From: Candidatus Culexmicrobium cathedralense
GTDB lineage: Archaea > Thermoproteota > Methanomethylicia > Culexarchaeales > Culexmicrobiaceae
DNA length: 64,000 nucleotides
Assembly: GCA_025061115.1 (NCBI GenBank)
Contig: JANZKC010000002.1
Span: 448,001-512,000 of the forward strand
Reading direction: 5' to 3'
The notes below the pieces were generated by a model. That model was not told where the DNA came from. It worked only from the letters and a program-made list of their open reading frames with translations, and ran no database searches. Made by a program: the position numbers and the translations under genes. Positions 5,257-25,283 of this stretch are shown piece after piece (within the stretch, counting starts at the first letter, position 1; every line of letters begins with the position of its first letter).

Positions 5257-5265
5257 TGGTAGGTT

Positions 5266-7986: not shown

Positions 7987-8122
7987 GTAAATTATACGAT
8001 ATCGGAAGAGAGGCGGAGAGCCACGATTACGGTTGAAACTACCGATCCCGTGAATCCATCACCCCTGATAATGCTCTGCACGTTTACGGGTGGCATGGCA
8101 GGATACGCGTTAGGATCCATTT

Positions 8123-9079: not shown

Positions 9080-9231
9080 GAGGATCACGCCCTTCCTCCA
9101 GAGCCTGCAGAGGGCGCCCTCCACGGATTTGATGCTCAACCCCGTCTCCTACACCAATTCCCCCGGGATCGGGGCTTACCGTCGCTCAGAACAGACAGTA
9201 TCGCACGCTCCGTCTGGCCGTGATCGGGCAA
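9080..9231 (-). pseudogene. Remnant of a wHTH gene homologous to the gene at ~63.0 kb
   Basis: Manual translation AILSVLSDGKPRS/ELV*ETGLSIKSVEGALCRLWRKGVIL contains a frameshift and a stop. Confidence 0.7.
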
Positions 9232-9383
9232 CTCTAAACCCCATAGTAAAAGTTGAAGCCTAATATAAAGACGAGGGTTCAAACCTCGATGGAAAATCTC
9301 AGACGCCGTAAAATTCGACCAGGAATTGTAGCGGCTTAATAGCCGAAAAGAGCCCGATTTCGGCTTAATTCAAGGTTTTAGAA

Positions 9384-9460
9384 TGGTGGACCGGGCGGGA
9401 TTTGAACCCGCGACCCCCCGCGTGCGAGGCGGGTGCTCTTCCAGTCTGAGCTACCGGCCC
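9384..9460 (-). tRNA. tRNA-Ala(CGC)
   Basis: Cloverleaf GGGCCGG...CCGGTCC-A-CCA, anticodon loop CT-CGC-AC, G3:U70 Ala identity pair. Confidence 0.97.
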
Positions 9461-9571
9461 AAAAATCAAATCACCAAAACAACTTATAGGCTTTTCCAAG
9501 CTTCAACCACCAAGTTAAATTAAGTTTTCCTAATTAAGTGAGCGTTAAAGCTTTAATTTATAATGTGAAAT

Positions 9572-10357
9572 TTGAAAGTGGCAAGTTTGACGGTGATCAA
9601 AATGCCCATTGAGAGAGTTAAAACTGGAATACCTGGAATGGACGAAATACTCCACGGAGGAATACCTAGAAGAAATGTCGTTCTTCTTTCAGGAGGGCCG
9701 GGAACCGGCAAGTCAATCTTCGGCCAGCAATTCCTATACAGCGGATTAATAAATGGAGAGCCGGGAGTGCTAGTAGCCCTCGAAGAGCATCCAGTTCAAG
9801 TCAGAATAAACATGGCTCAGTTCGGCTGGGACATCAGGAAATACGAGGAGGCAGGGCTAGCAGCCATAGTAGATGCCTTCACTGGAGGAATAGGAGAAGC
9901 AGCCAAAAGAGAGAAATACGTTGTCCCAGCGCCAGACGACTTTGCATCCCTAGTGGACGTAATAAGGAGGGCAATTAAAGACGTCAAAGCTGAGAGGGCA
10001 GTAATAGATTCAGTGACAACCTTGTATATAACAAAGCCAGCAATAGCAAGATCAGTCGTAATGCAACTCAAAAAAGTCCTATCAGGACTAGGATGCACAT
10101 CAATCCTAGTCTCCCAAGTAAGCGTAACCGAAAGAGGCTTCGGAGGGCCAGGAGTAGAGCACGCTGCAGACGGAATAATAAGATTAGACCTAGACGAAAT
10201 AAGAGGAAAACTATTCAGAAGCCTAATAGTCTGGAAAATGAGAGGGACATCCCACAGCATGAGCAGACACCCATTCGACATAACCAGCAGAGGACTAGTA
10301 GTATATCCACATAAAACCTTAAGCATAAGTAGAAGAATAATTGAAGCGGAGGCATAA
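9572..10357 (+). CDS. KaiC-domain RecA-superfamily ATPase
   Basis: TGIPGMD, Walker [13 protein letters not shown] and KMRGT motifs. Confidence 0.92.
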
Positions 10358-10847
10358 AATGAGCATCCAAATCAACCTAAATCCAATAGGAAGAGAAGAA
10401 ATCCACAGACTCGAAGCAGCACTACTAATAGGAACACTACTACGGCCAGAAGTACTCCAGCTCCTAAAAGACCCAGCAGAGCGACTAACATGGGTAGACT
10501 CACTAGCAGTAGCAGCAGGAGCAATAGCAAGAGAAAGAGCAAAAATGACCATACCAAGAATAGCCGAAGAACTAGGAAGAACAGAAGCAACAATAAGAAA
10601 CCACCTAGCAGGAAAAACCAAGGCAGGCCAACTAGTAAGACAAACACTACAGAAATTCATTAAAGAAGGAGTAAAACTGGAAATAGCAATACCAACAATA
10701 ACACTAGAAGAAATAGATGAAATGAAGAAAGAACTCGAACAACTCAAATCAAAACTAGCAGAAGAAGAAAAAACAAGAATTGAACTAGAAAACAAACTCA
10801 AAAACATAAAAGAAGAACTAAAAAAGATACTCGAAAAACTGACCTAA
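10341..10847 (+). CDS. KaiC-associated HTH regulator with coiled-coil tail (start probably 10359)
   Basis: [15 protein letters not shown] and [16 protein letters not shown]; typical neighbour of archaeal KaiC genes. Confidence 0.8.
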
Positions 10848-10901
10848 CACCCACATTTTATAAGCGAAACATTAAATTTCAACCAGCAAAAACACTAATC
10901 T

Positions 10902-10978
10902 GGGCGGGTCGTCTAGCTGGCTAGGATGCCGCCCTGACGCGGCGGTGGTCGTGGGTTCGAATCCCACCCCGCCCACCA
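10902..10978 (+). tRNA. tRNA-Val(GAC)
   Basis: Cloverleaf, anticodon arm CCGCC-CT-GAC-GC-GGCGG, encoded CCA. Confidence 0.97.
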
Positions 10979-11104
10979 CTACCATCAATTTGATGGTGTT
11001 CTGATGGTGTGAATTAATGGTACCTAGTGGACTCTGCTACTGGTTCTGCAGTTTGCATATCACCTTTTTATATGAAATTCTGCATTTAGATAGTTGGTGA
11101 ATTA

Positions 11105-12466
11105 GTGGATCCAAGTAAGGTAAATTTGAAGTCTATTGGTGATGAGGTTAGGTATAGGATTTTTGATTATGTGAGGAGTAAGGGTGTTACTAGCCGTGAT
11201 TTAGGTATCAATCCAACTATTATCAATAGAATTAAAAATAGGCGTATACGTGTTTCAGATCGTACACTTGCTAAATTATTGAGATTTTTGACTTTAGAAG
11301 AATTTGCTGAGCTCATTAGTGGTAGAATTCCAAGTCAATTAATTGAGCCTAGAGATTTGAGTGAAGCCTTAGTTAAGCTTGAATCATCAATAAATCAACT
11401 CAAAATACTGTTAGATAAGTATCCACAACTATCATCAATAGCATACCAGAAATTTAATGAAATAATTAGCCACTTAAAACACTATTCAATAACCGTGACT
11501 AATGAACATATTGAAAAGTTCAAGAAAATATTGCGTGATAAAGCACCAAAAACAGCTAGTGACCGCATGAGATACCTACTAAGAGCACTAAGAGACTTAA
11601 ACTACGAGCTCTCCACTGACAAGCTTCAAGAATATATTATTGATTTGAAAGAGCAAAGCATTTATGTAGCTGAGCACACAGCAAAAGCCCTAAAACTATT
11701 CATAAAGCACGTAATTAAAGATAGAAACCTATACGAATCATTTAAAACACCAAGAGTAACCGAAGAGGCTGATAAGGAAATTCCAACTCCAAATGAAGTA
11801 AGAGCTGTAGCTAAAGCAATAAATTGGTCACCAGCAAAAGCCTACTACTGCCTCCTAGCAGAATCAGGATTAAGACCAGGAGAACTATTCAAATTAATAA
11901 TAAGTGAAATAAATATTGAAGAGAGAACAATAAAGCCAAAAAGAGTAACTGAAACTAAAAGAGCATATATAGCATTCTTCTCAAAACAACTCCAAAAATA
12001 CCTAAAACAAGTCTACCTACCCTACCGAGAAGAATTCATTAGCAAATACGCCAAGAACATGAAATACTTAATTGATGCTAAAGCTGAAGAATGGAAATAA
12101 CTTCTATTCCCATTTAAAGAATCAACCATAAGAGCAGCAATATACGACGCAATGGAAAAAACATTAGGTAGGAGATTCAAACTATACGACTTAAGAGCAT
12201 TTTTTGCAACCTACATGAGCATCAAAAAAGTACCAGGCCAAATAATCGATATAATACAGGGAAGAGTACCACCCAAACAATTCAAAATCCTAGTAAGACA
12301 CTACCTAGCAATCACAACTGAAGAACTAAGAAAAATATATGACGAAGCAAACCTAACAACACTAGAAAAACAATTAAAAGATAATGAAATACACCAGCTT
12401 AGAAGGCTTGAAATATATACTAATGTTTCAGTATCTGATGGAAAACTGAAACATCACAGCATATAA
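11105..12466 (+). pseudogene. Tyrosine integrase with an internal TAA stop (12098-12100)
   Basis: The two ORFs share one frame (EWK*LLFPF). Motifs SGLRPGE, YDLR, QGR and RHY; HTH-like N-terminus. Confidence 0.9.
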
Positions 12467-12654
12467 GATCATCAAATTTGATTATTATTAGGGTGGAATG
12501 AAACAATATCAAGCATAAGAGCATTTTTATTTTCATTGACAAGCCACTAAGCAATGAAGTGGCTAAATGAGTTTATTTAGATAGTAATACTTTGAATACT
12601 TTTTGATTTAACTTCCTTTAATTTTAAATTTTCAGTTGCAATAACTTTAGGTAG

Positions 12655-14022
12655 GTGTTGAGTATTAGTGGCGCAAATGTGAGGGTTATGCAAAAATATT
12701 CTAAGATAGCTCGATATTGGGGAAGGAAAATATATGAAGCTACTAAAGTAATTTTCCTAAACATTACTGGAAATATTGAAGGTAAAGTGATTTTAGATCC
12801 ATTTGGTGGTGCTGGTTGCATAGTTCTTGAAGCTTTAAGGTATGGCGCTAGAACAATCTACATCGACATAAATCCTTATGCTTACTTAATAGCTCGTGTA
12901 ATGTTAGATTGGTTTGATTATGAAAAGTTACGTTTAAAAGCTGAAAAAGTACTTTCACGCAAAAAAATAATTTATCAAGGGCTTGATGGCTCAACGAAAT
13001 ATATTGGTGCAGATGAACTATACACCATTGAAGTTCAAGGAGTTAAAAAGAGAGTTAAGTATTATGAGTGGATTGATGATGAATGTTGTGCAGTAACGTT
13101 CGATGGTGAGAAAATAAGGACTTCCGACTTCACTGAAGGAGAACCTTACTATCAACCACCAAAATATAAATTGTGGTATCCATGGGGAGAGCCTTTCGAT
13201 AAGAAAAGAAACTACGATTGGCTACACGAATTCTTCACAAATCGAAACTTAATAATACTCACAAATATTTGGCATGATATACGACCACCTAAAACAATTT
13301 CCGGAAAAGATACTCGTGAACATCGAGCCATGACTCTTATCTTTTTGTCAATACTTTACATGGCAAGCAAAATGGCAAGGCGCGGGGCTGGATCATGGGG
13401 AGTAAATAGCTATTGGGTGCCACGAATACATGTAGAGTACAATCCCTATGATCTTTTACGAAGAAAATTGAAGAGAATCTTAAAGATGTCGCCCCCCCTA
13501 CAATATCAAGCAAAAACATCTGGAAGCATACATAGTATTCCTAGAGTAATCAGAGGGAAATTGCATGCTGCAATACTTCATGGTGACTGCACGAAAATTC
13601 TAAAGCATATCTCCCCAAATAGTATAGATTACGTAGTAACAGACCCCCCGCATGCAGATGAAGTACAATATTTAGAGTTGAGCTTTTTCATGAATGCTTG
13701 GCTTAGATCCAATCCATACTCATGGGCAATTGATGAGGTAATTGTCAATAGAAGAAAACACAAAGATTTCAATACATACATAAGAATGCTCACCTCGGCT
13801 TATAAGTTAATTCATAATGTGCTTAAGCCGCGGGGAAAAATGATACTAATTTACCACGAAGAAAGTGAACAGAAATTAAAAGAAATGATAAAGGCCGCAG
13901 AAAAAGCAGGTTTTTCCTTAGAAAAGAAATTAAGTGGTGAAATGAAGTATCAGCGTAACATTGGTGATAGAAATACATTAAGGGGAAAAATTTACTGGAT
14001 ATTAGTTTATTCGAAAAACTGA
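12655..14022 (+). CDS. DNA amino-methyltransferase (m6A or m4C); start possibly ATG at 12688
   Basis: RYWGRK, motif I ILDPFGGAG, DINP and motif IV TDPPH. Confidence 0.85.
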   Translation: MLSISGANVRVMQKYSKIARYWGRKIYEATKVIFLNITGNIEGKVILDPFGGAGCIVLEALRYGARTIYIDINPYAYLIARVMLDWFDYEKLRLKAEKVLSRKKIIYQGLDGSTKYIGADELYTIEVQGVKKRVKYYEWIDDECCAVTFDGEKIRTSDFTEGEPYYQPPKYKLWYPWGEPFDKKRNYDWLHEFFTNRNLIILTNIWHDIRPPKTISGKDTREHRAMTLIFLSILYMASKMARRGAGSWGVNSYWVPRIHVEYNPYDLLRRKLKRILKMSPPLQYQAKTSGSIHSIPRVIRGKLHAAILHGDCTKILKHISPNSIDYVVTDPPHADEVQYLELSFFMNAWLRSNPYSWAIDEVIVNRRKHKDFNTYIRMLTSAYKLIHNVLKPRGKMILIYHEESEQKLKEMIKAAEKAGFSLEKKLSGEMKYQRNIGDRNTLRGKIYWILVYSKN

Positions 14023-14056
14023 AATTTTTCACCAAATATTTTTACTTGGTGTAAGT

Positions 14057-15682
14057 TTGGCACATGAACATAGTAAGTATACTAAACGTATAGAACATGC
14101 TTTAATTAAGTATGTCCGTAGATTAGATTCAGAAGTTAATTTGGCATTAAACAGTTATTTTAATCTTATTGAAAAAGCAGTGCATCAAATTGAAGACTAT
14201 AGATTGAAAGTATCTCCTGAAACACCACACATATTGCTTCCACTATCCCTACTTGGAACTTATCGATTCAATGTAGAGAAGCTATACTTTGATGTAAAGT
14301 TTAATAATCCATTTAGAGATGACGTACGTATTTTATTTTCAAGTAAAATAATGATACCAGCAATTTCACTAAACTTACCATCATTCGTAACTGTCCATCG
14401 TTGGACTAGAAAACGCCAATGTGAAGACTTGGAATCAGCAGTTGATGAAGATAGGATGCTTATTATAGAGAGAGGTAGCTATTCCATTTTAAACTTCTAT
14501 TACTTTGATTCCATGACATGCTCAGAAATTTATGACGCAGATTACCTTAACATGATACTTAAAGATATGCTAATATTTCTAGCATTACTACCAGTACCTA
14601 GCCTGAATGATAAGTGTCAAGCTTTCTGCAGATCTCTTCCATTCTTAAGCATGTATGGATCTGACATAAGCGGTGTTGAAGCACTAGGCATTACGCGCTG
14701 CTTGCTTAAATTAGATCGTAAAAGCTTGGAATCAGCATATTTCAGACGCGCATCCATTCGAAGCTTATTATGGGGGAGGCTACCATTCTATAAGGTGAGA
14801 GCTTTTATAGTATCAAATAATCCAATAGAAGATAAGATTAATGTTTTAAGTAATGAAGTAATCTACATTCCAGAGCTGTACTTCATGAAGCTTCTAGAGT
14901 ATTGTAATGCTAGTGCTCTGCTAGTGGACTCAATTGTAATATCTCTCTTCATAATTAAGAAAGGCTTAAGAGAATATGCGGAAAAATTGATGCTCTTCAA
15001 TATTCTAGCTATGCCTATCAACATCTTTCCAGTAAATGATAGTGCCGTCATGTTTGCAATTCTAAATTACGCTACTACTAGCACTTGTTCTAACCAGATT
15101 ATAAATATGACAGCTGAAAGAAAGGATTCTTTAGAACATGAGTTTGACATTAACATCACGATTCGGGAGGGCGATTTATTATCTAAAATGCACTTCATAC
15201 TCAGAGCTATGAAGTTAAAGCAATTGAAATTAAGCTTATCCAAAATAACCATTAAAATTTCGCGAAGTAGTTCAAAACTATCCAATCTGTTAGGTTATGC
15301 GTATACGTATTTGCTTCCCTTCATAAATGAACGCTCACTTATAAGTCATGAACAAAAGAGTGCAATATCATCTCGCTGCTATCCTCCCTGCACTATACTA
15401 CCGTTGATTTCCTTTGCTTTAGCAAAGAAGTTTAATTTCAAAACATATAAAGAGCTAGCAAAACAAATAGTACAAATTCTGAGCAAACGTATTAAGAAAA
15501 ATGACGCTGAAATTCTAACTACACTTAGTGATGAATTTAGGAGAAGGGGTATTAATGTTAAATATAGTGAGATAATTGCCTTAGTGAGAAACATAATATT
15601 AGCATGGCAACTACATATTATTAGGGCAAAATATCTTAAATTGATGTTAAAACATCAATTATATGGAGGATCGTTTCATTGA
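14057..15682 (+). CDS. Unknown 541-aa protein in the putative defence operon
   Basis: Long intact ORF in AT-rich DNA; its stop overlaps the helicase start (TTGA). Confidence 0.8.
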   Translation: MAHEHSKYTKRIEHALIKYVRRLDSEVNLALNSYFNLIEKAVHQIEDYRLKVSPETPHILLPLSLLGTYRFNVEKLYFDVKFNNPFRDDVRILFSSKIMIPAISLNLPSFVTVHRWTRKRQCEDLESAVDEDRMLIIERGSYSILNFYYFDSMTCSEIYDADYLNMILKDMLIFLALLPVPSLNDKCQAFCRSLPFLSMYGSDISGVEALGITRCLLKLDRKSLESAYFRRASIRSLLWGRLPFYKVRAFIVSNNPIEDKINVLSNEVIYIPELYFMKLLEYCNASALLVDSIVISLFIIKKGLREYAEKLMLFNILAMPINIFPVNDSAVMFAILNYATTSTCSNQIINMTAERKDSLEHEFDINITIREGDLLSKMHFILRAMKLKQLKLSLSKITIKISRSSSKLSNLLGYAYTYLLPFINERSLISHEQKSAISSRCYPPCTILPLISFALAKKFNFKTYKELAKQIVQILSKRIKKNDAEILTTLSDEFRRRGINVKYSEIIALVRNIILAWQLHIIRAKYLKLMLKHQLYGGSFH

Positions 15683-18600
15683 GTAATGTTCAAGTACCTA
15701 GTATTGATGACTTAATGATTGGCGCTTACCAAGAGCTTTTCTTGAAGGAGTTAGAAAATGTAAGAGCAACACATCAAGTACTAGTGCATCATAGTGTTCC
15801 TGAAGTACTTCAGATATTGCATTCATACATATCTCAATTTAAAGAGAAGCCTATCCACCTCAATGCTAATCAACTACTAATGGAGCTTGCTAAGAGAAAG
15901 CTTATACTAATTTATCCCGATGGTAGAGTGAGAACCAGAAATTTGGAACTCATTATTAGAGCAATTTACTCACGAGCATATCCAAGTGCATTATCAACAT
16001 TAGAGTATGTGATCTTAAAACCTCGTGAATCACCACTACCATCATTTGAAGAGCGCGAGGGAAATGAACTACGCAACATAGTATACATGTACTTTAGGAC
16101 TTTCCTAGATGAACAATTGGCAACCAACTTGTCAGAAGCCTTTACTAACGCATTTGTTAAAAGCATTGCAAATAAAAGCTCCCTAGAGGAAGGTTCACTA
16201 TCTGAATACCAATATATTAACTTGAAAACCCTCCTTAATTACGCTTCTAACAAAGCACCTTCTATATCGCTTTTAGCAGCTCCCACAGGTACGGGTAAAA
16301 CTTGGATTTTCGTGCTCTATGCCATAGCCAGAATTCTAGAAGCAAAAAGTAAGGGCGAATTTAGTGGAGTAAAAGTTATTATTTTATATCCGAGAAAAGC
16401 TTTAGCACGTGATCAATCTGAACGAATTTTGAAGTTACTCCACTTTCTTAATGAAGAATTAAAGCTAAGAGGGCTTCAAACATACGCTATTAGTTTAGGT
16501 ATTTGGGATCGAGACTCACTGCAAAATTGGAGGAAAATTGCAGAAATAAGAATGAAAGCTAAAGGGAGAAATGTTGAATTTAGAGGCATTAAATGCCCTA
16601 TTTGTAGCGCAAAGTTAATTTATGATGAGCAAAGGGAAGTTATTGCCTGCCCATCTTGTGGACTTACCTTTAACTTTATAGGGGACATTAGAGAGTGGAT
16701 AAACAAAAAACAACCAGACATACTCATCACAAACTTTTGGGCTTTAAACTACAGGCTCATTAGCAGACATTACAAGCAACTACTAGGAAATCGAGTTCGC
16801 TGCATAATTATAGATGAAGCTCACGTACTAAAGGATTTAGAAGGAGCCTTCACAGCATACCTCCTTTGCAGACTTCTGTTACGATTAGCAATGCAGTACA
16901 AGGGAGTATCTACTATTCCATCAGCACCATTAAAGCTCGATCCTAATGCAGAATATAATGCTCTTGACTGGATACGCGACTACATTAGAGATAAAAGCTT
17001 AACCATTATCCTATCATCAGCGACAATTTCCACTGCACAAACAGTGAGTGAAAGGAATAAAGATGCCATAAAATTTACTAGCAACCTTGTTTATCCCAAA
17101 CTCTTTGAACTATTCGAAAGTTTATGTAAAGGTATGGGGTTAGAGCCCGTAATTTATCACGATTATAATGACATTTACGAGAAACTTTATAGTGCGAGAC
17201 ATCCATTAGGAAAGGTGAGGAGAAAAATAGATGTTGTAATCATATTAGCTCCACATCCATCAAGAGGTTTAGAAACAATCGCTCAATCCACAACTCTGTG
17301 TTCTCTATTTTGGTGTAAAGAGTTCAATCAGAAATTCTTACTATTTACTGATAATAAAGAGGCAATTGAACGTCTATATCACTTTATAAATGACATTATT
17401 ATTGGTGAACGTGGAGAAATATATGATCACCTATTTCTTACAGATAAGAATCCAGGTGCTCGAAGAAGTCTCCTTATACATAAGTCATGGAAAAATTATG
17501 GAGAAAAGCTACTAAGCAATGGCGATATGCTAATTAGGGCATTGGAAGACCCGCTTTACTGGATAATCTTTTCCTACCCATCATACTTTAATAAAATCAT
17601 AACTAAACTTAGAGATATCAATAAAGCGTTATCTCAAATGAACTATAAACAGAGTGATCACTTTAATGACCTCCTAAACATTGCTAAGGCTAGTTGTGAT
17701 GATATTTTTTGGAATAGAGCTTCGCGCTTAAGCATTCATCATGCCGATCTGGATAGGAGTGAGAGACAAAGTATAGAGGAGAGATTGAAGGGAGCTGATT
17801 TAATTGGAGTTCTATGTACATCAACACTAGAACTTGGTATCGATATAGATCACATATCAACTATAATTCAATACAAACCACCTAGAACTGCGGAGAACTT
17901 TATTCAAAGGCTTGGAAGAGCTGGAAGAAAACCTACAACAATGTACATCGCCACCGGCTTCCTACTTCTAAGCAATTTTGAAACTCTATATCTCAATGAG
18001 AGGTACTCAGAAAATGCATTATTCAATGTCAGACCCAAACCCTTACCACTAAATAATCACCGTGTACGTGCTAACGCCATCTTCTATACGATAATTGACA
18101 TGTTAGCGTATCTAGATTATCAGACTTATTATAGTAGCAAAGCAAGAGATGCTAACAGAACTGCAAATAGAACACATAATATCTACCGAGCACTCCTAAC
18201 ATATGAAAAGCCCATAATTTCAATAATTGCAAGTTTGTTTGGTCTACATTCAAGTATAGTGAAAGATGAGTATCAAACACTTACAGATCATATATGGGTA
18301 CTTTACAGAAACTTAAGTAACATAACTATGGGTCCAATTTCAATTAAAAACATTATATATAACACAATGGAAACAGTACAATTAACGAGAGATAATTTAA
18401 ACAAAATACTTTCAAGCATGGGTGAAAATCCAAACCTCTTTAGGGATTCAGAGGAGTATCAGAGGATAATAAGTAAAATGTTTAAATATTTACGATTTCT
18501 TAATGAGCTATATAACGGGCTTCACAAATTAGATCTCTACTGCATATCCAACCCCGAATATTTAATAAGGAAAAGAAATGATATACGCAAGAACCTTAAC

Positions 18601-18804
18601 AATTACTTAGTCAAGTTAGATGATCTAGTAATTTTCCTAAATAACTTGAGTAAAATGATTTCTGATGCTATACTCTTCTCAAAGATCAGAAAAGTAACAG
18701 ATGACTTAAAGCAGATAGAGAGTGGTGTTAAAGAATTAATTAAATTCGTGCAGACTGGTATAGATTTACTCTTCACTTTAAACTTAAGGCGTATATTACG
18801 GTGA
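15679..18804 (+). CDS. SF2 DEAH helicase with zinc ribbon (MrfA/DpdJ/DrmA-like)
   Basis: APTGTGKT, YPRKALARDQ, CPIC...CPSC, DEAH, SAT, TSTLELGID and QRLGRAGR motifs. Confidence 0.92.
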   Translation: MSNVQVPSIDDLMIGAYQELFLKELENVRATHQVLVHHSVPEVLQILHSYISQFKEKPIHLNANQLLMELAKRKLILIYPDGRVRTRNLELIIRAIYSRAYPSALSTLEYVILKPRESPLPSFEEREGNELRNIVYMYFRTFLDEQLATNLSEAFTNAFVKSIANKSSLEEGSLSEYQYINLKTLLNYASNKAPSISLLAAPTGTGKTWIFVLYAIARILEAKSKGEFSGVKVIILYPRKALARDQSERILKLLHFLNEELKLRGLQTYAISLGIWDRDSLQNWRKIAEIRMKAKGRNVEFRGIKCPICSAKLIYDEQREVIACPSCGLTFNFIGDIREWINKKQPDILITNFWALNYRLISRHYKQLLGNRVRCIIIDEAHVLKDLEGAFTAYLLCRLLLRLAMQYKGVSTIPSAPLKLDPNAEYNALDWIRDYIRDKSLTIILSSATISTAQTVSERNKDAIKFTSNLVYPKLFELFESLCKGMGLEPVIYHDYNDIYEKLYSARHPLGKVRRKIDVVIILAPHPSRGLETIAQSTTLCSLFWCKEFNQKFLLFTDNKEAIERLYHFINDIIIGERGEIYDHLFLTDKNPGARRSLLIHKSWKNYGEKLLSNGDMLIRALEDPLYWIIFSYPSYFNKIITKLRDINKALSQMNYKQSDHFNDLLNIAKASCDDIFWNRASRLSIHHADLDRSERQSIEERLKGADLIGVLCTSTLELGIDIDHISTIIQYKPPRTAENFIQRLGRAGRKPTTMYIATGFLLLSNFETLYLNERYSENALFNVRPKPLPLNNHRVRANAIFYTIIDMLAYLDYQTYYSSKARDANRTANRTHNIYRALLTYEKPIISIIASLFGLHSSIVKDEYQTLTDHIWVLYRNLSNITMGPISIKNIIYNTMETVQLTRDNLNKILSSMGENPNLFRDSEEYQRIISKMFKYLRFLNELYNGLHKLDLYCISNPEYLIRKRNDIRKNLNNYLVKLDDLVIFLNNLSKMISDAILFSKIRKVTDDLKQIESGVKELIKFVQTGIDLLFTLNLRRILR

Positions 18805-21311
18805 TAGTTATGAATAGAAGAAGTATTAGTCTCATTCATTTGCTTAGAGAAGGTGTGTCATTTAGAAGATTGTCGGATCCACTTCACATGGGAAAGAGTA
18901 CAGTTCAAGATTGCAAACTTATTATACGATACTCTCATGACCCTGATGGATTGAAAGAGAGCACTAAGTGGCCTATAACGGATGTCTTGTATACTTACTT
19001 GAGACCTTTAAATATTCGCCGACTTACAACTCCCCAAGGAAAGCAGTGGTGCATAATACTTCCTCCTTCACGTAGTCTTTACAGAGTTGAGTACTTTGAT
19101 CATACACGTAGAATAGTTAGAGTTAAACGAGTTCGACATTCAAGTATCAGGCTTAACTTATTAAATTATGTACCATATAAGTGCTATGACGATTCATGGT
19201 TTAACTATCAAACAAGTTCAGGAGTTTGGCGTGCATGTGCTCCTGAATTTATAACTTATATAACATTTGACATGCTACCCGATGCTAATAAGCCTCTATT
19301 ATACTTATGCTGTAGACGGCGCGGTCATAATCTTGAAGTTCTAAATCTCATATACATTTCAAGGCCTACCAAAAGTGTTGAAAGCATACCTGTCACATAC
19401 ACTTATGACTGTAAGTTTGTATGGATAGGAGCATCTAAAAGTGATCTGAAAAGCATGGGCTTCACAGAGCCACCAACAAATTATACAATCGAAGAAGTTT
19501 ACAGTAGAGGTTCGAGAGCAATTTACTTTGAAAGAAGGTATTCTTATGATGATTTGCTTGACAATTCAAGTGTTACTAGAGCTTTGAGATCATATGCTAT
19601 AGTTAAAGTTTATATAGAGCCAGTAAGGGAATTAGGGTATCCACCTGTACTTATCTTGCACATGGATAATGCAGGCTTATATGTGCGTAGAGTTCCTAAG
19701 ATATGCTTTAAAAAAGTTCTTTTAGGCTCCCGTTTAAGAGCAATGATTACAATGCTATCATCAGCACCTATATTCATTAATATGCACACATATCCTCAAA
19801 GAGCTACAATGGGCGGAGGATTAGGTGTAAGAATTATTAATAGCGAAGGATTTGAAATTCTCTTCGAAAAGAGGGCATTTAGAAAACTAATTGAGGGTAT
19901 TGTACTAAGCGATATTAAGTTGTTGAAGACGCTTCTACTAAAATATGTTTTAATAAAATACTGTTATGATAGAAGGGAAGACTATTATGATTTCTTAGCA
20001 ATATCAGACTTAATCCTCACATTAATTCAAGGCGATCCAGAGAATAAGTTAAGGAATTATAGTAAAGCATTATATGCCATAGATGTAGATGAAGTTATAG
20101 CTAATTTGAGGAGAGCACCTGAAGATTATGATCGATTCATAAATTACGTTGTTGAGGTAGCCCTCAACTCATTAGCTCATATTCTTCTAAAAGTAATTAC
20201 AGCGCACACACTTAATACTCAACTGAAAAATTTCACTTTATATGTTGATACTCAGTACAAGGCAAGAATCAATGGAGAGGAAGATGAGTATTACGCTATA
20301 CTGGTCTTGGAAAATTCACATGAAGGCCTAGGCTTTATAGAGCAACTAAGTGCACTACTATCACAAGATACTCAGATAAACATAGTTAAATACATCATAA
20401 AACCCGCTCTTCAAATGTTAATAGATGATAAAACTGGTAAAGACTTCTGCTCCATGCACTATGAAGCTTATAGAAGGAAGGACAAGAGCTTAGTTGATGC
20501 ACTATGCGGCAGAAATCCAGACTTGAATCAACTAAGAGATTACGTGAGAAACCTTGTAAATGAATGGAGAAAGCACTTAAAAATAGATTTTCCATCAGAT
20601 TTCATACGACCCCTACTCCAACACTACCTAAAAATTGTCAATCCATCTCTACGCAGAAAACTTAACACAGATGCATTCCTCCGTGGATCAATACCTCAAG
20701 TCTATAATGTTGAAGTACCATTCTGTTGGGATGGTTGTGAGCAATGCATTAGATTGAGAGACGCTTACTTGTTGACACCAATAGAGCAAATATTCAACTT
20801 ATCCAAAAAACTACTAGTACGTATAATAAATGTACTCTACGATCTACTTGATCCAAGCAAGAAAGCACTCCATAGAACTGGAAGTGGCTTAGGTCAAGAA
20901 GTTTTAAAGCTCTTAAGCTCGGCAAGTACTGAAATAAGGATAATGTGTCCATGGATATCACCTGACATAGCTCAATACTTAATTGATATTGCGCAAAATA
21001 AGGGATTAAAAATAAGAATTATAACACATCCCCCAAGCAGAAATGAACCTCTTCCCCACATAAACGCAGTAAGCATACTCGAAAAGGCAGCTAAACAGTT
21101 AAATATAATTAAAATAGCATACAATGAAAAAATTCATGCAAAAACAATAATTATAGATGATACGTTATTAATAACTGGCTCAATGAACTTAACAAAACGT
21201 GGAACAGAAATAAACATAGAAAGCATAACCATATTCAAATGCAAATCCACAATATACACAAGCATTGTAGATTACGAATTACAGTGGTGGGTTTCATTAA
21301 ATAAAACCTAA
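18801..21311 (+). CDS. DUF1998-like Zn-binding domain fused to a PLD (HKD) nuclease
   Basis: LNSLAHILL...LENSHEGLG...CWDGCEQC, then HAKTIIID-x6-GSMN at the C-terminus. Confidence 0.8.
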   Translation: MIVMNRRSISLIHLLREGVSFRRLSDPLHMGKSTVQDCKLIIRYSHDPDGLKESTKWPITDVLYTYLRPLNIRRLTTPQGKQWCIILPPSRSLYRVEYFDHTRRIVRVKRVRHSSIRLNLLNYVPYKCYDDSWFNYQTSSGVWRACAPEFITYITFDMLPDANKPLLYLCCRRRGHNLEVLNLIYISRPTKSVESIPVTYTYDCKFVWIGASKSDLKSMGFTEPPTNYTIEEVYSRGSRAIYFERRYSYDDLLDNSSVTRALRSYAIVKVYIEPVRELGYPPVLILHMDNAGLYVRRVPKICFKKVLLGSRLRAMITMLSSAPIFINMHTYPQRATMGGGLGVRIINSEGFEILFEKRAFRKLIEGIVLSDIKLLKTLLLKYVLIKYCYDRREDYYDFLAISDLILTLIQGDPENKLRNYSKALYAIDVDEVIANLRRAPEDYDRFINYVVEVALNSLAHILLKVITAHTLNTQLKNFTLYVDTQYKARINGEEDEYYAILVLENSHEGLGFIEQLSALLSQDTQINIVKYIIKPALQMLIDDKTGKDFCSMHYEAYRRKDKSLVDALCGRNPDLNQLRDYVRNLVNEWRKHLKIDFPSDFIRPLLQHYLKIVNPSLRRKLNTDAFLRGSIPQVYNVEVPFCWDGCEQCIRLRDAYLLTPIEQIFNLSKKLLVRIINVLYDLLDPSKKALHRTGSGLGQEVLKLLSSASTEIRIMCPWISPDIAQYLIDIAQNKGLKIRIITHPPSRNEPLPHINAVSILEKAAKQLNIIKIAYNEKIHAKTIIIDDTLLITGSMNLTKRGTEINIESITIFKCKSTIYTSIVDYELQWWVSLNKT

Positions 21312-21436
21312 AACCTCCAAATAAACTCCGGACAAAATCCATGATAAAATCGTCAACCAGTTTAATCACCGCTATATATTTGTTCATAGCTCAATTTCTT
21401 AGAAAAATACTTTGTCTATAGGTTAGGTGAAATAGT

Positions 21437-22751
21437 ATGAGCAAAAATAAAAGTAGAAATGAGTATAAACTAATCTACTTCGTACCACTAATCATAGTAT
21501 TAATAGGTGTCGTAGCATTTTTTATCGTTAATGAAATTCTTAAACCAAAAATAATTGGTGAAGTTGTTGAAGAATTATCATTAACTGAAATTATTCCTAC
21601 TAGTCATGAAGAAGCAATAAAAATTATGCCTAAACTATTCAAGTAAAATTGGGAAAATACTAGTAACCTACTTTGAAGATCAAATACAAACTGGCCCAAT
21701 AATTGACAATGGATATCTAATATTCAAGGAACCAATACCAGTTTACATGAATAGTGGATGGTTAACGATTAAAGTAAAAATACTGGAAGCAGAACCAGAG
21801 GACTACACGTTGATGTGGGTATTTGACAAAAACTATACGATAACATTTGAATGGAGCAAATATTATGTTGGGGCTATACTATTTGAGGGATTAGTAGATA
21901 GGGTTCGTGTAGCTGAATGTTTTAGCATAATAGCACCAAATTTTACATATAGCATTAAATGTCTAGTTCTACCAAAAAGATATCAGCCACCAAGTTTTCC
22001 AGCATTTGGGAAAACCTACACGATAACAATTCCAGCTTGGATTGAATTCAAAGTACACGCTAATACTATTGATGAAATTCTCGAGAACTTACCAGCAATT
22101 CTACGTGATTTAGCTGATGAAGTTGATCAAGGATTTAGTCCACATCAAGCTTTAGAGAGATTATTTGAAAACGCCACTTACGGTAAATTCACGGACAAAT
22201 TCATAGCACTCCTAGTTAAGCGTGCAAGAGTATTTGGCTCACTAAGAGACTCCCTAACTGGAATAGAGCACCTACTACCAGTTCAAGCGAGACTAGCTTT
22301 ATGGCTAATTATTCTGGGGGAGGAATTGGGTGCAACTTCAAGTGTATATCATGAATTAGCAGATGCAATGCACGAATATTATTTGTCATTGAAAAGCTTC
22401 AAGCGTAGCTGCCAAGGATTTAGGTGGATGGCAATTGGACTAGTAGCCCTAACAATAGGTTTAGTAATAACGTTATTCTCAACACTAATTTCAAGAATAA
22501 GCATTATCAGTGAACTAGCATTTAAAGCTGAAGGAATAATTTCATTACCATTCAATATTGCCGGCCTAACACAATTACCAACAATTAAGGATTGGATTTA
22601 CGCATCAGTAGCATTGAATTCAATTGTTCTAGCATTAACAGCAGGTAAAACGCTTGACTGGAGGTTGGGTGGAGCATTTAGGGATGTAGCACTAGTGTCA
22701 ACAATAATACTGTTAGCTCTAATATTCGGCTTAATCTTTAGATTACTATGA
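21437..22751 (+). pseudogene. Frameshifted membrane-anchored gene ending in a TadC/T2SS-F-like domain
   Basis: The frame of 21747-22751 stays open back to the A-run at ~21620 inside the upstream ORF. The C-terminal half has LPAILRDLADEVDQG...ELG and three TM helices. Confidence 0.55.
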
Positions 22752-23109
22752 TTTATGCATTAAATCTTCAATAGTGCTATTGATTTTTGAGATTATTGCT
22801 TCATAAATTTCATCATCACTAGCATTCAAATTGTATGTTGCAAGAAGTTCATCATCACCGAAAATAGAAACTTTACCATTAACAATAACCACAAAAATAC
22901 TCCTCAAATATTCTTCACCCCAAGCTCTATTTGTGAATTTGTGCGTGTGTAAATACTATAGTATCTGAGTCGGTATGTTCATTAGATATTATGAATTTAA
23001 TGATTCACGAACCATGTTAATGTTCATGGTAAGCGAATATATTATAGCATGCTATTCATGAATTCAAGCAACTTAAATACTCTAATGCAGTCTATAAGGG
23101 AATTCATTA

Positions 23110-23538
23110 ATGACTGTTGGAGATAAAAAGATTATTACTAAGAGTGATAAAGTAGCACTACAAGTATTAATTCCTAAAGAGTTGTATGATGAACTCATAA
23201 GAATAGCAATTGAAGAGTATGGTTCAGTGAAGGGTGCAGTTTCAAATTTAGTTGAAAGAGCAATTAGGATATATCTTGGACCTAAAATGCACACACAAAT
23301 ACGCACAAATCCACCCAATAAAATACGCCAAATATACGACAAAGTAATTGAAAGAGTTAAGGAATTGTTAGGTATTGATTTTAAACCATATCATGTTCCA
23401 ACTAAGCTATTTGAGCAGGCAATAGCAATGGAGCGTGGAAGTGATCCAAGAACAATTAGTAAGTGGATTAGCACGTTCAAGAGATTTAAACTAATAAAAT
23501 TCGTAGATCAATACGGGAAAGTATTAGAGCTTCTCTAA
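23110..23538 (+). CDS. RHH plus wHTH DNA-binding protein
   Basis: LQVLIPKELYDEL...VSNLVERAIRIYL (RHH) and SDPRTISKWI (HTH). Confidence 0.7.
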   Translation: MTVGDKKIITKSDKVALQVLIPKELYDELIRIAIEEYGSVKGAVSNLVERAIRIYLGPKMHTQIRTNPPNKIRQIYDKVIERVKELLGIDFKPYHVPTKLFEQAIAMERGSDPRTISKWISTFKRFKLIKFVDQYGKVLELL

Positions 23539-24114
23539 CTAGAGTTTGGGAATATTTCCAAATTTGATAATCTATTAGTTATTTCTTTAGAAACAATCGT
23601 GCAAACCTTTTACTTATTAGTTTAACTCCAAATTTACATGCAACATTAATGAAAGGATTTTGAATTAGATTACACATTGAAGTCTCTTACTTCGTTTAAA
23701 ATCTCTACAAGCCTCCTCCATTGCAATTCTGGCGAGCTCCTATGTGTATGTTGAGTATAATCCATCTTCAACATAGTCATAAATATTCTCGTTGATATGA
23801 TCATGATATCCACATGTTTTATAATCTCTCACACGGCGCTCTAAATAGCTTAGGTGTAATTTGTTTTCATAATCATTGGAATCGTTCCCCACGATGTTGT
23901 CTTTATTTATTTTAACTACATTTCTGTTCGGATAAGAACTTGGACTTAAGTAAGCGGGTTGGTTTTTAACCATTAATTAACACTGTATAGCCCTTATGGT
24001 CAGGAAGATTTTTAATGAGGTACTTTTAAGTTCTAAGACTGTCATCTCATGCAATTAACTTCAGATTTCGCAACTAGCTTTCTAATTTTAATTTAATGAT
24101 TATTTTGTTGAATT

Positions 24115-24612
24115 TTATTTTTGCTTTAGTTGTTTAATCTTGTAGATGTTTAATATTTTGATAGTTAGTAGGTAGAATGGTATGCTTATTATAATTGTTA
24201 TAATTAGTATTTTAATTATTATTTGCGGCTCTCTAATTGCTGCAGTTGCAAGAAAGCCTAACAATATCGTGGGTATGAATCCTCCACTTGATGATAGCAT
24301 TAGGAGTAGCATTTGAATCCAAAATGGAATTCTGTAATTTAAATATATGATGCAGGCAATCATTATTGAAAGCGTAGATATTATGGTTAAAATTAATAGG
24401 ATTATTAGTGATTTAATTGATTTATGAAACTTCATTTTATAAGCTAGGTAAGCATTAATTAAACCGATTATAGATAATGGATTAAATATTGGTGGTACCA
24501 TGAAAAATGACATGATAAAGCTATTTACAATAGCAAGTATAAAAAGTATGTTAACTAGCAGTGGGTTAGGTTTAAGCATTACTATCACTTCACGGCTTTT
24601 TCTTGCCCTCAA
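24115..24612 (-). CDS. Hypothetical multi-pass membrane protein
   Basis: Several hydrophobic segments; adjacent to the upstream ORF. Confidence 0.55.
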   Translation of the reverse strand: MRARKSREVIVMLKPNPLLVNILFILAIVNSFIMSFFMVPPIFNPLSIIGLINAYLAYKMKFHKSIKSLIILLILTIISTLSIMIACIIYLNYRIPFWIQMLLLMLSSSGGFIPTILLGFLATAAIREPQIIIKILIITIIISIPFYLLTIKILNIYKIKQLKQK

Positions 24613-25093
24613 CTATGATGAAGATTTTCCAATTACCTGTTAATAGTTTACTAGATTTTAATTTTAACAAATCACCCCGTCTTAATTCAACATAGTTATC
24701 ATCGCTTTTAATTATTTGATTAACTACATCACCTTGAATCGAATGAATTGCTTCACATAATTGAAAGACGAAACCTATATTGGATTCATTTACAGCTATC
24801 ACTGTAATTTTGTCAATAAGTAATGTATGGTTTTCTTGTACCAGCATCCTTAGTACAAGCTTTCTATATTCTCGATGGGTCATTAGCTCCATTACTTTAG
24901 ATACATCAATTATATCACGGTCACTATGAAGCATTAGATTGCAAGAATCCTTCCAATTGCTTCCCGTCCAAACTTGAACATGCAATCCCGCAGTTGATGT
25001 TAATGAAGGATCAACTTCATAGAATACTCTCAAATATGAAAAATATGCTTCTGAATACCCCATGTGCTCCTCTACAACATCTTCAACTTGCAT
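24590..25093 (-). CDS. Hypothetical protein
   Basis: 167-aa ORF in AT-rich DNA. Confidence 0.5.
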   Translation of the reverse strand: MQVEDVVEEHMGYSEAYFSYLRVFYEVDPSLTSTAGLHVQVWTGSNWKDSCNLMLHSDRDIIDVSKVMELMTHREYRKLVLRMLVQENHTLLIDKITVIAVNESNIGFVFQLCEAIHSIQGDVVNQIIKSDDNYVELRRGDLLKLKSSKLLTGNWKIFIIVEGKKKP

Positions 25094-25283
25094 TAATTTG
25101 CATTTCCATATAATTAAAATAAATATATATTCTCTTGCTCTTGTGCAGCAAATACAGCATCTCTTAAAGCATTATAAATCATTCCGATTGATCTATCTAA
25201 TATTGATGTTTAGATGATTGATGAGCTAAACTATTGAATAGTTTCACTGATTTGAGTGTGGAAAGTTGCATATTTGCTTTAAG

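What the first reader, a model, noticed from the sequence alone, without database searches (positions are those of the whole stretch)
12655..21311. Candidate undescribed archaeal defence system: methyltransferase, 541-aa unknown, SF2 helicase, DUF1998-like/PLD fusion
Seen: four co-oriented intact ORFs follow the integrase in a tRNA-Val island. The last three are coupled by 4-nt overlaps (TTGA at 15679, GTGA at 18801). All helicase motifs, the HxKx4Dx6GSxN nuclease motif and MTase motifs I and IV are present, while the neighbouring integrase and membrane gene are broken. Known: helicase plus DUF1998 plus PLD forms the core of DISARM (DrmABC, with DrmD/DrmMI or DrmE/DrmMII) and of Dpd (DpdJ/DpdK). 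Inference: the layout matches neither. There is no SNF2 DrmD, no C5 MTase within the operon and no dpdA. DUF1998 is fused to PLD, and an amino-MTase is the likely self marker. This suggests a compact methylation-guided anti-virus system.
Basis: partly seen in the sequence, partly recalled or inferred. Interest (0 to 1): 0.88.

Follow-up and report, generated by a model that had tools for sequence, protein, structure and literature searches.

The report
Compact archaeal DISARM/Dpd-like defence operon
A hydrothermal-vent archaeon carries, on a decayed mobile island, a rare four-gene cluster (DNA methylase, orphan protein, split helicase, zinc-domain/nuclease fusion) that looks like a stripped-down relative of the known DISARM and Dpd antiviral systems rather than a wholly new kind of system.

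Summary
Four intact, co-oriented, tightly packed ORFs lie at 12655-21311, in a low-GC island beside tRNA-Val and behind an integrase with one in-frame stop.

The proteins are:
- an amino-methyltransferase (motif I, then DPPH);
- a 541-aa orphan, U541;
- a YprA-type SF2 helicase whose best family match is DpdJ, far under the cut-off;
- an 836-aa protein whose middle is DUF1998/MZB-like, shown by profile homology to a relative that passes Pfam MZB, and whose end is a Nuc/Zucchini-like single-HKD PLD nuclease.

No DISARM, Dpd, Druantia or Pbe model reaches its cut-off.

The four-gene order recurs in 2 of 3 informative related contigs. The wider unit is three genes: methylase, helicase and MZB-PLD fusion. 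It appears in 7 of the 8 Thermoproteota genomes I examined, in several gene orders, and once with helicase, MZB and PLD in one 1593-aa ORF. U541 is confined to the window's small clade.

My reading: a methylation-guided helicase-nuclease defence module of the DISARM/Dpd clade, a new variant of a known kind. Nothing functional was tested. [quoted passage not shown] Interest is moderate.

The parts
10902..10978 (+). tRNA-Val (GAC). Left edge of the low-GC island and likely integration target.
   Evidence: ARAGORN. An assembly unitig of run X1 breaks at 10959-10969, inside the tRNA 3' end. No second copy of the 3' end lies in the island.
10979..25112 (.). Low-GC island of about 14 kb that carries the operon. 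The right edge is approximate.
   Evidence: GC is 0.342, against 0.456 and 0.483 in the flanks. One X1 contig spans 10959-25112 at depth 71.5, while the flanking contigs have depths of 86-94. This is a weak hint, because X1 may be the source sample.
11105..12466 (+). Tyrosine integrase pseudogene with a single in-frame stop after codon 331.
   Evidence: Translation. Pfam Phage_integrase and Phage_integr_3 match the two halves. PHROG integrase phrog_5127 scores 3.5e-21.
12655..14022 (+). MT: a 455-aa N6-adenine/N4-cytosine-type DNA methyltransferase. Motif I (DPFGGAG, 48-54) comes before motif IV (DPPH, 330-333), with a variable middle region between them.
   Evidence: Pfam N6_N4_Mtase 4.5e-09. 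The best PADLOC match is PglXI at 2.6e-25, over part of the protein. In the family alignment DPFGGxG and DPP[HYFM] are conserved and the stretch between them varies in length.
14057..15682 (+). U541: a 541-aa orphan protein, the clade-specific fourth component.
   Evidence: No hit in Pfam, PADLOC, NCBIfam or PHROGs. A profile search of 1.84 billion representatives found only 7 proteins, all of the same family. The AF2 model has pLDDT 61 and pTM 0.69. It gave weak OB-fold matches for residues 170-352 (Z 5-6) and four-helix-bundle matches for 442-519 (Z 7.9). U541 sits upstream of the helicase in 4 of 4 loci with enough flank.
15679..18804 (+). HEL: a 1041-aa YprA-type SF2 helicase core with Walker A, DEAH, SAT and motif VI. 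It has an N-terminal extension and a long helical C-terminal region.
   Evidence: Pfam DEAD, Helicase_C and ResIII. The best models are DpdJ: NCBIfam 130.7 bits (cut-off 800) and PADLOC 2e-39. PDB sequence matches are Lhr, a 2108-aa DEAD/DEAH helicase (9tu7) and YprA/MrfA.
16594..16659 (+). CxxC...CxxC zinc ribbon inserted in RecA1 of HEL (residues 306-327).
   Evidence: Pfam Zn_Ribbon_TF at 305-329. Regex match. C306 and C324 are invariant across 7 helicases of the wider family.
18801..21311 (+). MZB-PLD: an 836-aa protein (833 aa if it starts at ATG 18810). It has a beta-rich N-terminal part, a DUF1998/MZB-like zinc region and a C-terminal PLD nuclease.
   Evidence: ORF. The family has 7 clusters in 5.8 billion proteins. 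hhalign to the L019 fusion gives 99.9%, E 3e-32, over 353-825.
20136..20870 (+). DUF1998/MZB-like region (about residues 446-690). It holds SLAH..L, ENSHEGLGF and the Cys cluster CWDGCEQC (642-649), split by an insertion.
   Evidence: Pfam MZB does not hit this protein directly. The assignment is transitive: the L019 homologue scores 27.4 bits against a cut-off of 24.2, and the motifs align. Seven of the 50 listed wider-family proteins carry precomputed PF09369.
20904..21311 (+). Single-HKD PLD nuclease domain of the Nuc/Zucchini type (motif at 779-796).
   Evidence: Pfam PLDc_2 2.4e-18. Best models are DpdK and DrmC. Structure matches are Nuc (Z 14.1), NucT (14.0), Zucchini (13.9) and the SauUSI PLD (12.7). 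Foldseek agrees.

Best explanation
The locus encodes a compact, restriction-modification-like antiviral module. It belongs to the DISARM/Dpd branch of the YprA-helicase defence systems and is carried as cargo on a decayed integrative element at tRNA-Val.

**Proposed working (inferred unless marked otherwise).**
- The amino-methyltransferase marks host DNA at a motif read by its variable middle region.
- The helicase and the N-terminal two thirds of the 836-aa protein together rebuild a YprA-type translocase, as DrmA and DrmB do. That part of the 836-aa protein is beta-rich and contains the DUF1998/MZB-like zinc region. Both genes occur as one ORF in a relative; this is shown.
- The complex loads on unmethylated incoming or replicating DNA and translocates using ATP.
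- The covalently attached single-HKD Nuc-like domain can form an active site only as a dimer. This follows from established knowledge of Nuc, BfiI and Zucchini (recalled). It would therefore cut when two complexes meet.
- U541 is an accessory subunit of this clade only. It may be an OB-fold DNA binder or a gate on the helicase. It occupies the position, directly upstream of the helicase gene, that I recall DrmE taking in class 2 DISARM.

**Shown here:** the genes, domains and motifs, the conserved linkage, the gene fusions, the defence-island context and the failure of all known system models.

**Inferred:** complex formation, self-marking by methylation, DNA cleavage and protection.
For: **Genes and motifs.** All four ORFs are intact in AT-rich DNA, and every catalytic motif is present.

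**Helicase.** Its best models are DpdJ, then DrmA and DruE, all YprA-family. MrfA/YprA is among the PDB matches. A conserved zinc ribbon sits in RecA1. Bell et al. describe one zinc module there for Dpd (PMC12458937 section 7).

**The split is real and meaningful.** In G006 the helicase, MZB and PLD form one 1593-aa ORF. Bell et al. state that DISARM is the branch where the helicase and OB-CON-DUF1998 are consistently separate genes (section 8).

**MZB homology.** hhalign gives 99.9% to a relative that passes Pfam MZB. The nearest Atlas structural neighbours are mostly MZB-bearing clusters and include a 'DrmB family' cluster. These are leads only (TM below 0.5).

**PLD domain.** It resembles Nuc, NucT, Zucchini and the SauUSI PLD, with Z 12.7-14.1.

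**Linkage.**
- The order MT-U541-HEL-PLD recurs in L011 and L017. L012 has U541-HEL-PLD.
- I examined 8 of the 13 Thermoproteota genomes (of 401 searched) that matched the MZB-region profile at E <= 0.001. Seven of these 8 have helicase plus MZB-PLD with a homologous methyltransferase within 5 kb, in four different arrangements.

**Context.**
- L012 neighbours: helicase+NOV_C, HEPN_Swt1, KAP NTPase.
- L019 neighbours: EcoRII-C, a methyltransferase and Mrr_cat.
- L036 neighbour: a Schlafen-type helicase.
- The window copy lies in a low-GC tRNA island with an integrase.

**U541.** It co-occurs 4 of 4 with the close clade and is read in frame with the helicase in L011.

**Mechanistic precedent.** DrmAB ATPase is stimulated by unmethylated DNA and reduced by methylated DNA (PMC9142583, passages seen).
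Against: - No functional, expression or methylome data exist. No RNA run holds the locus.
- Pfam MZB does not hit the window protein itself. No DrmB model hits any family member.
- The AF2 model of the 836-aa protein is poor (pLDDT 48), so an OB-CON canopy is not shown.
- In L012 the closest system lacks an adjacent cognate methyltransferase. It has only a 34%-identical one 3.5 kb away. Methylase linkage is therefore not obligatory.
- G276 has a related helicase next to a 683-aa ORF that matched the MZB-region profile but has no PLD. No methyltransferase homologue was found in its 20-kb stretch.
- In published DISARM work DrmC was non-essential, and targeting did not need methylation sites (PMC9142583 introduction). 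A simple restriction-modification logic may therefore be too neat.
- The island's integrase is dead, so the cargo could be drifting.
- The U541 fold matches are in the range that unrelated models also reach (notes).
Confidence: 0.6

Rival explanations
1. The methyltransferase does more than mark self. As with PglX in BREX or ARMADA, it would be part of the interference machinery, for example target recognition. The module would then work more like BREX/ARMADA than like classical restriction.
For: The best PADLOC match of the methyltransferase is a PglX model (2.6e-25, residues 189-420). ARMADA and class 1 DISARM pair YprA helicases with PglX-like methylases (PMC12458937 section 5). The methylase stays linked in 7 of the 8 genomes examined even though gene order changes.
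Against: The protein is 455 aa, far shorter than the 919-position PglX model, and it matches only part of that model. There is no BrxHII-like second helicase. L012 keeps U541-HEL-PLD without the cognate methylase next to it.
Confidence: 0.15
2. The helicase-nuclease is a modification-dependent (Type IV-like) enzyme, like SauUSI. The neighbouring methyltransferase would then belong to a separate function.
For: SauUSI joins a PLD nuclease to an SF2 helicase, and its PLD domain is a structural match (Z 12.7). L012 lacks the adjacent cognate methylase.
Against: A homologous methyltransferase lies within 5 kb in 7 of the 8 genomes examined, in four different arrangements. That pattern is hard to explain for unrelated functions. 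No modified-base reader domain (SRA, YTH, Mrr-N or similar) was found in any of the four proteins.
Confidence: 0.08
3. The genes are decaying or idle cargo of a dead integrative element and have no present function in this host.
For: The integrase has an in-frame stop. The downstream T2SSF-like region may be frameshifted. No RNA data are available.
Against: Four ORFs of 455-1041 codons stay open in DNA where about 7.5% of random codons would be stops, and all catalytic motifs are intact. Homologues at 47-69% identity keep full length. Near-identical contigs over parts of the operon, each listed with no differing letters, are present in a second run, X2, which holds 0.80 of the sampled words.
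Confidence: 0.1
4. It is a DNA-repair module of the MrfA/MrfB (YprA/YprB) kind rather than a defence system.
For: YprA/MrfA is among the helicase's PDB matches. The YprA family has a repair branch (PMC12458937 section 5).
Against: The best models are those of the defence branch: DpdJ, DrmA and DruE. The module is linked to a DNA methyltransferase and a PLD nuclease rather than a MrfB-type exonuclease. It sits on a mobile island and in defence islands. Its distribution is patchy: 13 of 401 genomes matched.
Confidence: 0.05

Closest known systems
DISARM (DrmA, DrmB, DrmC plus DrmMI/DrmD or DrmMII/DrmE)
   Same: Both have a YprA-family helicase with its DUF1998 part encoded in a separate downstream gene, a PLD nuclease, a DNA methyltransferase in the cluster, one extra protein of unknown role, and a defence-island or mobile-island location (PMC12458937 sections 7-8; PMC9142583 introduction).
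   Different: - The DUF1998 part and the PLD are one polypeptide.
- There is no SNF2 DrmD.
- There is no hit to DrmB models; DrmE models were not checked separately, and U541 hit no PADLOC model at all.
- DrmA and DrmC models score far under their cut-offs.
- The methyltransferase is a 455-aa amino-methyltransferase, not a long PglX-like DrmMI or a C5 DrmMII.
- The helicase scores better on DpdJ than on DrmA.
- Whether a Cas11-like four-helix bundle precedes the PLD, as described for DrmC, was not tested.
Dpd restriction module (DpdJ helicase, DpdK PLD nuclease)
   Same: The best-scoring models for both the helicase (DpdJ) and the nuclease (DpdK) are from Dpd. One zinc module sits in RecA1, as Bell et al. 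describe for Dpd. The PLD has no detected N-terminal bundle.
   Different: - Scores are far below the cut-offs (130.7 vs 800; 52.9 vs 100).
- The helicase is split, and its DUF1998 part keeps the Cys cluster that canonical Dpd has lost (PMC12458937 section 7).
- The PLD is fused.
- No dpdA/B/C or 7-deazaguanine genes were found in the island ORFs scanned. Self-marking, if any, is by methylation.
BRIGADE (haloarchaeal Dpd-like systems; Bell et al. 2025)
   Same: Both are archaeal systems with a YprA-type helicase plus a PLD. The best plasmid tblastn matches of the helicase are haloarchaeal DEAD/DEAH helicases. One such locus has two helicases of about 1830 aa followed by a PLD protein.
   Different: The matches cover at most 27% of the helicase at about 28-33% identity. 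BRIGADE has two very large unsplit helicases and a deazaguanine cluster. It was reported only in halophiles (PMC12458937 section 5).
SauUSI-type ATP-dependent restriction enzymes (PLD nuclease plus SF2 helicase)
   Same: A single-HKD PLD nuclease is physically coupled to an SF2 motor. The PLD domains match in structure (Z 12.7).
   Different: The helicase family differs and the domain order differs. SauUSI has no DUF1998 and is modification-dependent with no partner methyltransferase (recalled, not tested here).

Membership tests
DISARM | DrmA-type helicase recognised by the curated DrmA models | tested here: not met
   NCBIfam DISARM_DrmAL scores 22.9 bits (cut-off 999) and DrmAS 17.7 (cut-off 950). 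PADLOC DrmA gives 6.1e-16, partial stretches only.
DISARM | DUF1998 (DrmB) encoded separately from, and next to, the helicase | tested here: inconclusive
   The split architecture is present and the MZB homology is transitive. However, no DrmB model hits this protein or four wider-family relatives, and Pfam MZB does not hit it directly.
DISARM | DrmC PLD nuclease as a separate gene | tested here: not met
   A PLD domain is present but fused to the DUF1998-like protein. NCBIfam DrmC_I scores 26.8 bits against a cut-off of 133.
DISARM | Class-defining partners: SNF2 DrmD with DrmMI, or DrmE with C5 DrmMII | tested here: not met
   No SNF2 or C5 methyltransferase domain appears in the operon or in the island ORFs scanned. 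U541 hits no PADLOC model. The methyltransferase is of the N6/N4 type.
Dpd | DpdJ and DpdK equivalogs | tested here: not met
   DpdJ scores 130.7 bits against a cut-off of 800. DpdK scores 52.9 against 100.
Dpd | DpdA/B/C and 7-deazaguanine synthesis genes in the cluster | tested here: not met
   No TGT, QueC, QueD or QueE-type Pfam hit appears in the ORFs of 80 aa or more between 11105 and 26326 that I scanned. I did not search the rest of the genome for them.
YprA-like helicase family (defence branch) | SF2 core plus a DUF1998 four-Cys zinc domain (OB-CON-DUF1998 canopy) | tested here: inconclusive
   The SF2 motifs are met, and YprA and Lhr are PDB matches. DUF1998 is supported by profile homology and a Cys cluster. 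OB and CON could not be shown because the model has pLDDT 48. No tree with reference sequences was built.
ARMADA | YprA helicase with a C-terminal Vsr nuclease, plus a BrxHII-like helicase and a PglX-like methyltransferase | tested here: not met
   There is no second helicase and no Vsr domain. The methyltransferase gives only a partial PglX match.
Druantia / Pbe | DruE-type giant helicase with partners, or the PbeA-D set | tested here: not met
   DruE models match only the RecA2 stretch. PbeA scores 2.2e-4 on the HKD stretch only.

The most novel reading that the evidence does not exclude
The three-gene core (amino-methyltransferase, YprA helicase, DUF1998-PLD fusion) is a distinct, self-sufficient class of ATP-dependent restriction-modification enzyme that is widespread in Thermoproteota. 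It would be the minimal form of the DISARM/Dpd lineage, and in one genome the motor and nuclease are a single 1593-aa chain. In this clade the motor would be gated by a new kind of sensor subunit, U541, an orphan with no detectable relatives in 1.84 billion representative proteins. U541 would decide when the tethered nuclease fires.
Probability: 0.3. Interest if true: 0.65.

Novelty: new variant of a known kind. Interest (0 to 1): 0.5.

Why it matters
DISARM and Dpd are still poorly understood mechanistically. It is unclear how the helicase recruits a nuclease, why DrmC is dispensable, and what DrmD and DrmE do.

Here the nuclease is covalently tied to the DUF1998 'canopy', and in a relative to the whole helicase. 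The only other conserved partner is a small amino-methyltransferase. Such a natural minimal version would be a simpler object for biochemistry and structure work, and it comes from thermophiles, which often give stable proteins.

It also extends experimentally untested YprA-type defence into hydrothermal-vent Thermoproteota. It adds one true orphan protein family (U541) whose role could be tested directly.

The gain is incremental. The lineage and its logic are known, and uncharacterized classes have already been signalled in print.

Tried and rejected

**att site.** No direct repeat of the tRNA-Val 3' end was found. The only other match is the 3' end of tRNA-Leu at 55745. The sequence at the right unitig break shows no obvious repeat.

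**U541.**
- Pfam, PADLOC, NCBIfam and PHROGs gave nothing.
- Foldseek against the PDB gave nothing at E <= 0.001.
- The ESM Atlas feature search scored at most 0.83, which is noise level.
- hhalign against the unknown ORFs next to the helicase in L019 (473 aa, upstream on the opposite strand) and L036 (418 aa, directly upstream on the same strand) gave probabilities of 0.1% and 0.6%.
- VIA-align matches to OB folds and four-helix bundles are in the range that unrelated models also reach. I use them only as a lead.

**Complex prediction.** The helicase (residues 1-450) with U541 returned 'no answer' (score 0.00). It counts neither for nor against binding.

**The 836-aa protein.** The AF2 model was poor (pLDDT 48). 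Fold searches with it found only the PLD domain, so the N-terminal 690 residues remain untested by structure. tblastn of residues 1-690 against plasmids found no match.

**Other collections.** Viral contigs held no relative.

**Expression.** No RNA holder was listed. All runs laid were DNA contigs. The small-share runs X4-X7 are not used for any claim about habitat.

**Not done.**
- I did not build a helicase tree with reference DrmA, DpdJ or DruE sequences, because I had no tool-supplied labelled references. Placement rests on model scores.
- Five weaker genome matches (G266, G279, G296, G366, G379; E 1.6e-4 to 8.9e-4) were not examined.
- The supplements of Bell et al. (Tables S1 and S2) are closed. 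They may already list these archaeal helicases.

**Literature.** Four searches found no paper that describes a DUF1998-PLD fusion operon with an amino-methyltransferase in Thermoproteota. This covers only the held library.

Full report
**1. Is it there?**

Yes. One search lists four + strand ORFs: 12655-14022 (455 aa), 14057-15682 (541 aa), 15679-18804 (1041 aa) and 18801-21311 (836 aa). The junction bases are TTGA at 15679 and GTGA at 18801. The database copy of the last protein starts at the in-frame ATG at 18810 (833 aa), so that junction may be a 5-nt gap.

With the local base composition about 7.5% of random codons are stops. Frames of 455-1041 codons would be open by chance with probability 4e-16 to 6e-36.

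- Methyltransferase: DPFGGAG (48-54) and DPPH (330-333).
- Helicase: GTGKT, DEAH, SAT and QRLGRAGR.
- PLD: HxKx4Dx6GSxN at 779-796.

tRNA-Val(GAC) lies at 10902-10978. The integrase frame has a single in-frame stop. GC falls from 0.46-0.48 in the flanks to 0.34 between about 10979 and 25112.

In the DNA run that may be the source of the assembly, one contig spans 10959-25112 at depth 71.5. The flanking contigs have depths of 86-94. This is a weak hint at the island's ends, and possibly at island-free cells. No att repeat was found.

**2. What are the four proteins?**

*MT (methyltransferase).* It carries Pfam N6_N4_Mtase. Its strongest PADLOC match is a partial one to a PglX model. Motif I precedes motif IV. 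In an alignment of eight family members, DPFGGxG and DPP[H/Y/F/M] are conserved, while the stretch between them varies greatly in length. That is the expected behaviour of a target-recognition region.

*HEL (helicase).* It is an SF2 helicase whose best curated models are DpdJ, followed by DrmA and DruE. All match over parts only and lie far below their cut-offs. YprA/MrfA and Lhr are among its PDB sequence matches. A CxxC...CxxC zinc ribbon sits inside RecA1 and is conserved across the wider family.

*The 836-aa protein.* It ends in a single-HKD PLD domain that resembles Nuc, NucT, Zucchini and the PLD of SauUSI (Z 12.7-14.1; Foldseek). Its middle does not hit Pfam MZB/DUF1998 directly. However, the family profile aligns with 99.9% probability (E 3e-32, residues 353-825) to a 784-aa relative from genome G007. 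That relative does pass Pfam MZB, with 27.4 bits against a cut-off of 24.2. The SLAH..L, EN(S/A)xxGLG and PxCWDGCxxC motifs line up. The N-terminal 350 residues are predicted beta-rich, but the model is poor (pLDDT 48).

*U541.* It matches nothing in four family libraries. A profile of eight members, run against 1.84 billion representative proteins, found seven proteins, all of the same family. Its model (pLDDT 61, pTM 0.69) gives only middling matches: OB folds (RPA, Stn1, Teb1) for residues 170-352 and four-helix bundles for 442-519.

**3. Is it a system?**

The close family of the 836-aa protein has seven clusters among 5.8 billion proteins, at 47-69% identity. U541 also has seven.

Among related contigs with enough upstream flank:
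- L011 and L017 show MT-U541-HEL-PLD.
- L012 shows U541-HEL-PLD. Its only methylase relative is 34% identical and lies 3.5 kb downstream.

That is 2 of 3 for the full order, and 3 of 3 (4 of 4 with the window) for U541-HEL-PLD. The other four metagenome contigs (L014, L015, L016, L018) are too short to judge.

A profile of the MZB region found matches in 13 of 401 Thermoproteota genomes. I examined the eight best matches:
- Seven carry a helicase plus an MZB-PLD fusion with a homologous methyltransferase within 5 kb: G000, G212, G007, G249, G369, G006 and G224.
- Across these seven the gene order varies: MT-(U541)-HEL-PLD, HEL-PLD-MT, and HEL-PLD with a convergent MT.
- In G006 the helicase, MZB and PLD form one 1593-aa ORF followed by a methyltransferase.
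- The eighth, G276, has a related helicase next to a 683-aa ORF that matched the MZB-region profile but has no PLD, and no methylase homologue was found in its 20-kb stretch.

None of the distant variants has a U541 homologue. G249 and G369 have a different unknown ORF in the same position.

The wider fusion family has at least 50 clusters (the list stopped at 50). They are named only 'hypothetical' or 'phospholipase D family protein', mostly from archaeal metagenomes.

Neighbours are typical defence genes:
- HEPN_Swt1, KAP NTPase and helicase+NOV_C.
- EcoRII-C and Mrr.
- A Schlafen-type helicase.

In L011 the U541 frame runs into the helicase frame without a stop. The apparent frameshift in that helicase is a run of N, that is, a scaffold gap.

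**4. How it most likely works.**

The single-ORF form in G006 shows that the helicase and the MZB-PLD protein are two halves of one machine. [quoted passage not shown]

I therefore read HEL plus the 836-aa protein as a split YprA translocase with its nuclease covalently attached. The methyltransferase would be the self-marker. This parallels DISARM, whose DrmAB ATPase is stimulated by unmethylated DNA and less so by methylated DNA (PMC9142583, passages).

A single HKD motif forms an active site only in a dimer. This is established for Nuc, BfiI and Zucchini (recalled, not tested here). Cleavage should therefore need two complexes.

U541 is most simply an accessory subunit, a DNA binder or a gate. 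The evidence for physical contact is only co-occurrence, tight spacing and one in-frame read-through.

All of this mechanism is inference. No expression data exist.

**5. Comparison with known systems.**

No curated model of DISARM, Dpd, Druantia, Pbe or ARMADA components is met (see the membership table).

*By architecture* the system is DISARM-like: the helicase is split from its DUF1998 part, and there is a PLD, a methylase and one unknown gene. Bell et al. say DISARM is the only branch where this split is consistent (section 8).

*By similarity* it leans towards Dpd:
- DpdJ and DpdK are the best models.
- One zinc module lies in RecA1.
- No bundle was detected ahead of the PLD.

Unlike canonical Dpd, it keeps the Cys cluster. 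[quoted passage not shown] It also has no 7-deazaguanine genes nearby.

The helicase's best plasmid matches are haloarchaeal helicases. One sits in a locus with two helicases plus a PLD, which resembles BRIGADE.

[quoted passage not shown] This locus is best filed as one of those.

What I saw of each paper:
- PMC12458937: abstract, sections 5, 7 and 8, and passages.
- PMC9142583, PMC11090510 and PMC11529989: passages only.
- All others: search listings only.
- Ofir et al. 2018 and Thiaville et al. 2016 were not read. What I say of them comes from the passages above or from recall.

**6. Verdict.**

New here:
- The DUF1998-PLD fusion, with a fully fused form in one genome.
- The small amino-methyltransferase as the only constant partner.
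- The recurrence of this three-gene core across Thermoproteota.
- The orphan U541 in one clade.

These make it a new variant of a known kind. Interest is 0.5, and confidence in the defence reading is 0.6.

Noticed in passing
L038 (G006:C4) 9210-13991, minus strand: A single 1593-aa ORF holds the helicase core, the MZB-like region and the PLD domain. A 578-aa methyltransferase-like ORF (7477-9213) and an unknown 465-aa ORF follow it. This is a fully fused version of the two-gene motor-nuclease.
   Followed up: partly
L011 3665-5959: The U541 homologue runs in frame, with no stop, into the N-terminus of the helicase. A run of N (scaffold gap) follows near 5945-5955. It could be a natural fusion or an assembly error.
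   Followed up: partly
L036 14311-15567 (-) and L037 14371-15657 (-): Unknown 418-aa and 428-aa ORFs with no Pfam hit sit directly upstream of the helicase, overlapping its start. This is the position U541 takes in the window. They are not detectably related to U541 (the L036 ORF was compared by hhalign, probability 0.6%; the L037 ORF was not compared).
   Followed up: partly
G000:C4:149538-151619 (L042 1099-3726): A second helicase in the same genome (875 aa, DEAD plus Helicase_C) scores higher on the DpdJ model (189 bits, positions 65-694) than the window's helicase. It is flanked by ORFs of 333 aa and more than 456 aa that have no Pfam hit.
   Followed up: partly
L012 1-5122 and 12663-17290: Defence-island neighbours of the close homologue: helicase with NOV_C, an MBL-fold protein, HEPN_Swt1, a KAP/AAA NTPase, two unknown ORFs and an N6/N4 methyltransferase.
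   Followed up: no
L047 (NZ_CP045489.1 76524-89480): A haloarchaeal plasmid locus has two adjacent DEAD/DEAH helicases of about 1830 aa, followed by a 655-aa PLD protein, next to csa3. It looks like the BRIGADE layout described by Bell et al. In the record the genes are annotated only generically.
   Followed up: no
window 21437-22751: A small ORF with a hydrophobic N-terminus and the 334-aa weak T2SSF-like ORF lie in different frames. I did not test it.
   Followed up: no
L040 (G276:C1) 4355-10176: A 1257-aa helicase related to HEL is followed by a 683-aa ORF that matches the MZB-region profile (E 2e-6) but has no PLD domain. No methyltransferase homologue was found in the 20-kb stretch. It is a DrmA/DrmB-like pair without a nuclease or methylase.
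   Followed up: partly
window 55745-55844: tRNA-Leu(GAG) is called at 100 nt. Its 3' end differs by 2 of 25 bases from the 3' end of tRNA-Val. It was the only other match when I searched for an att repeat.
   Followed up: no
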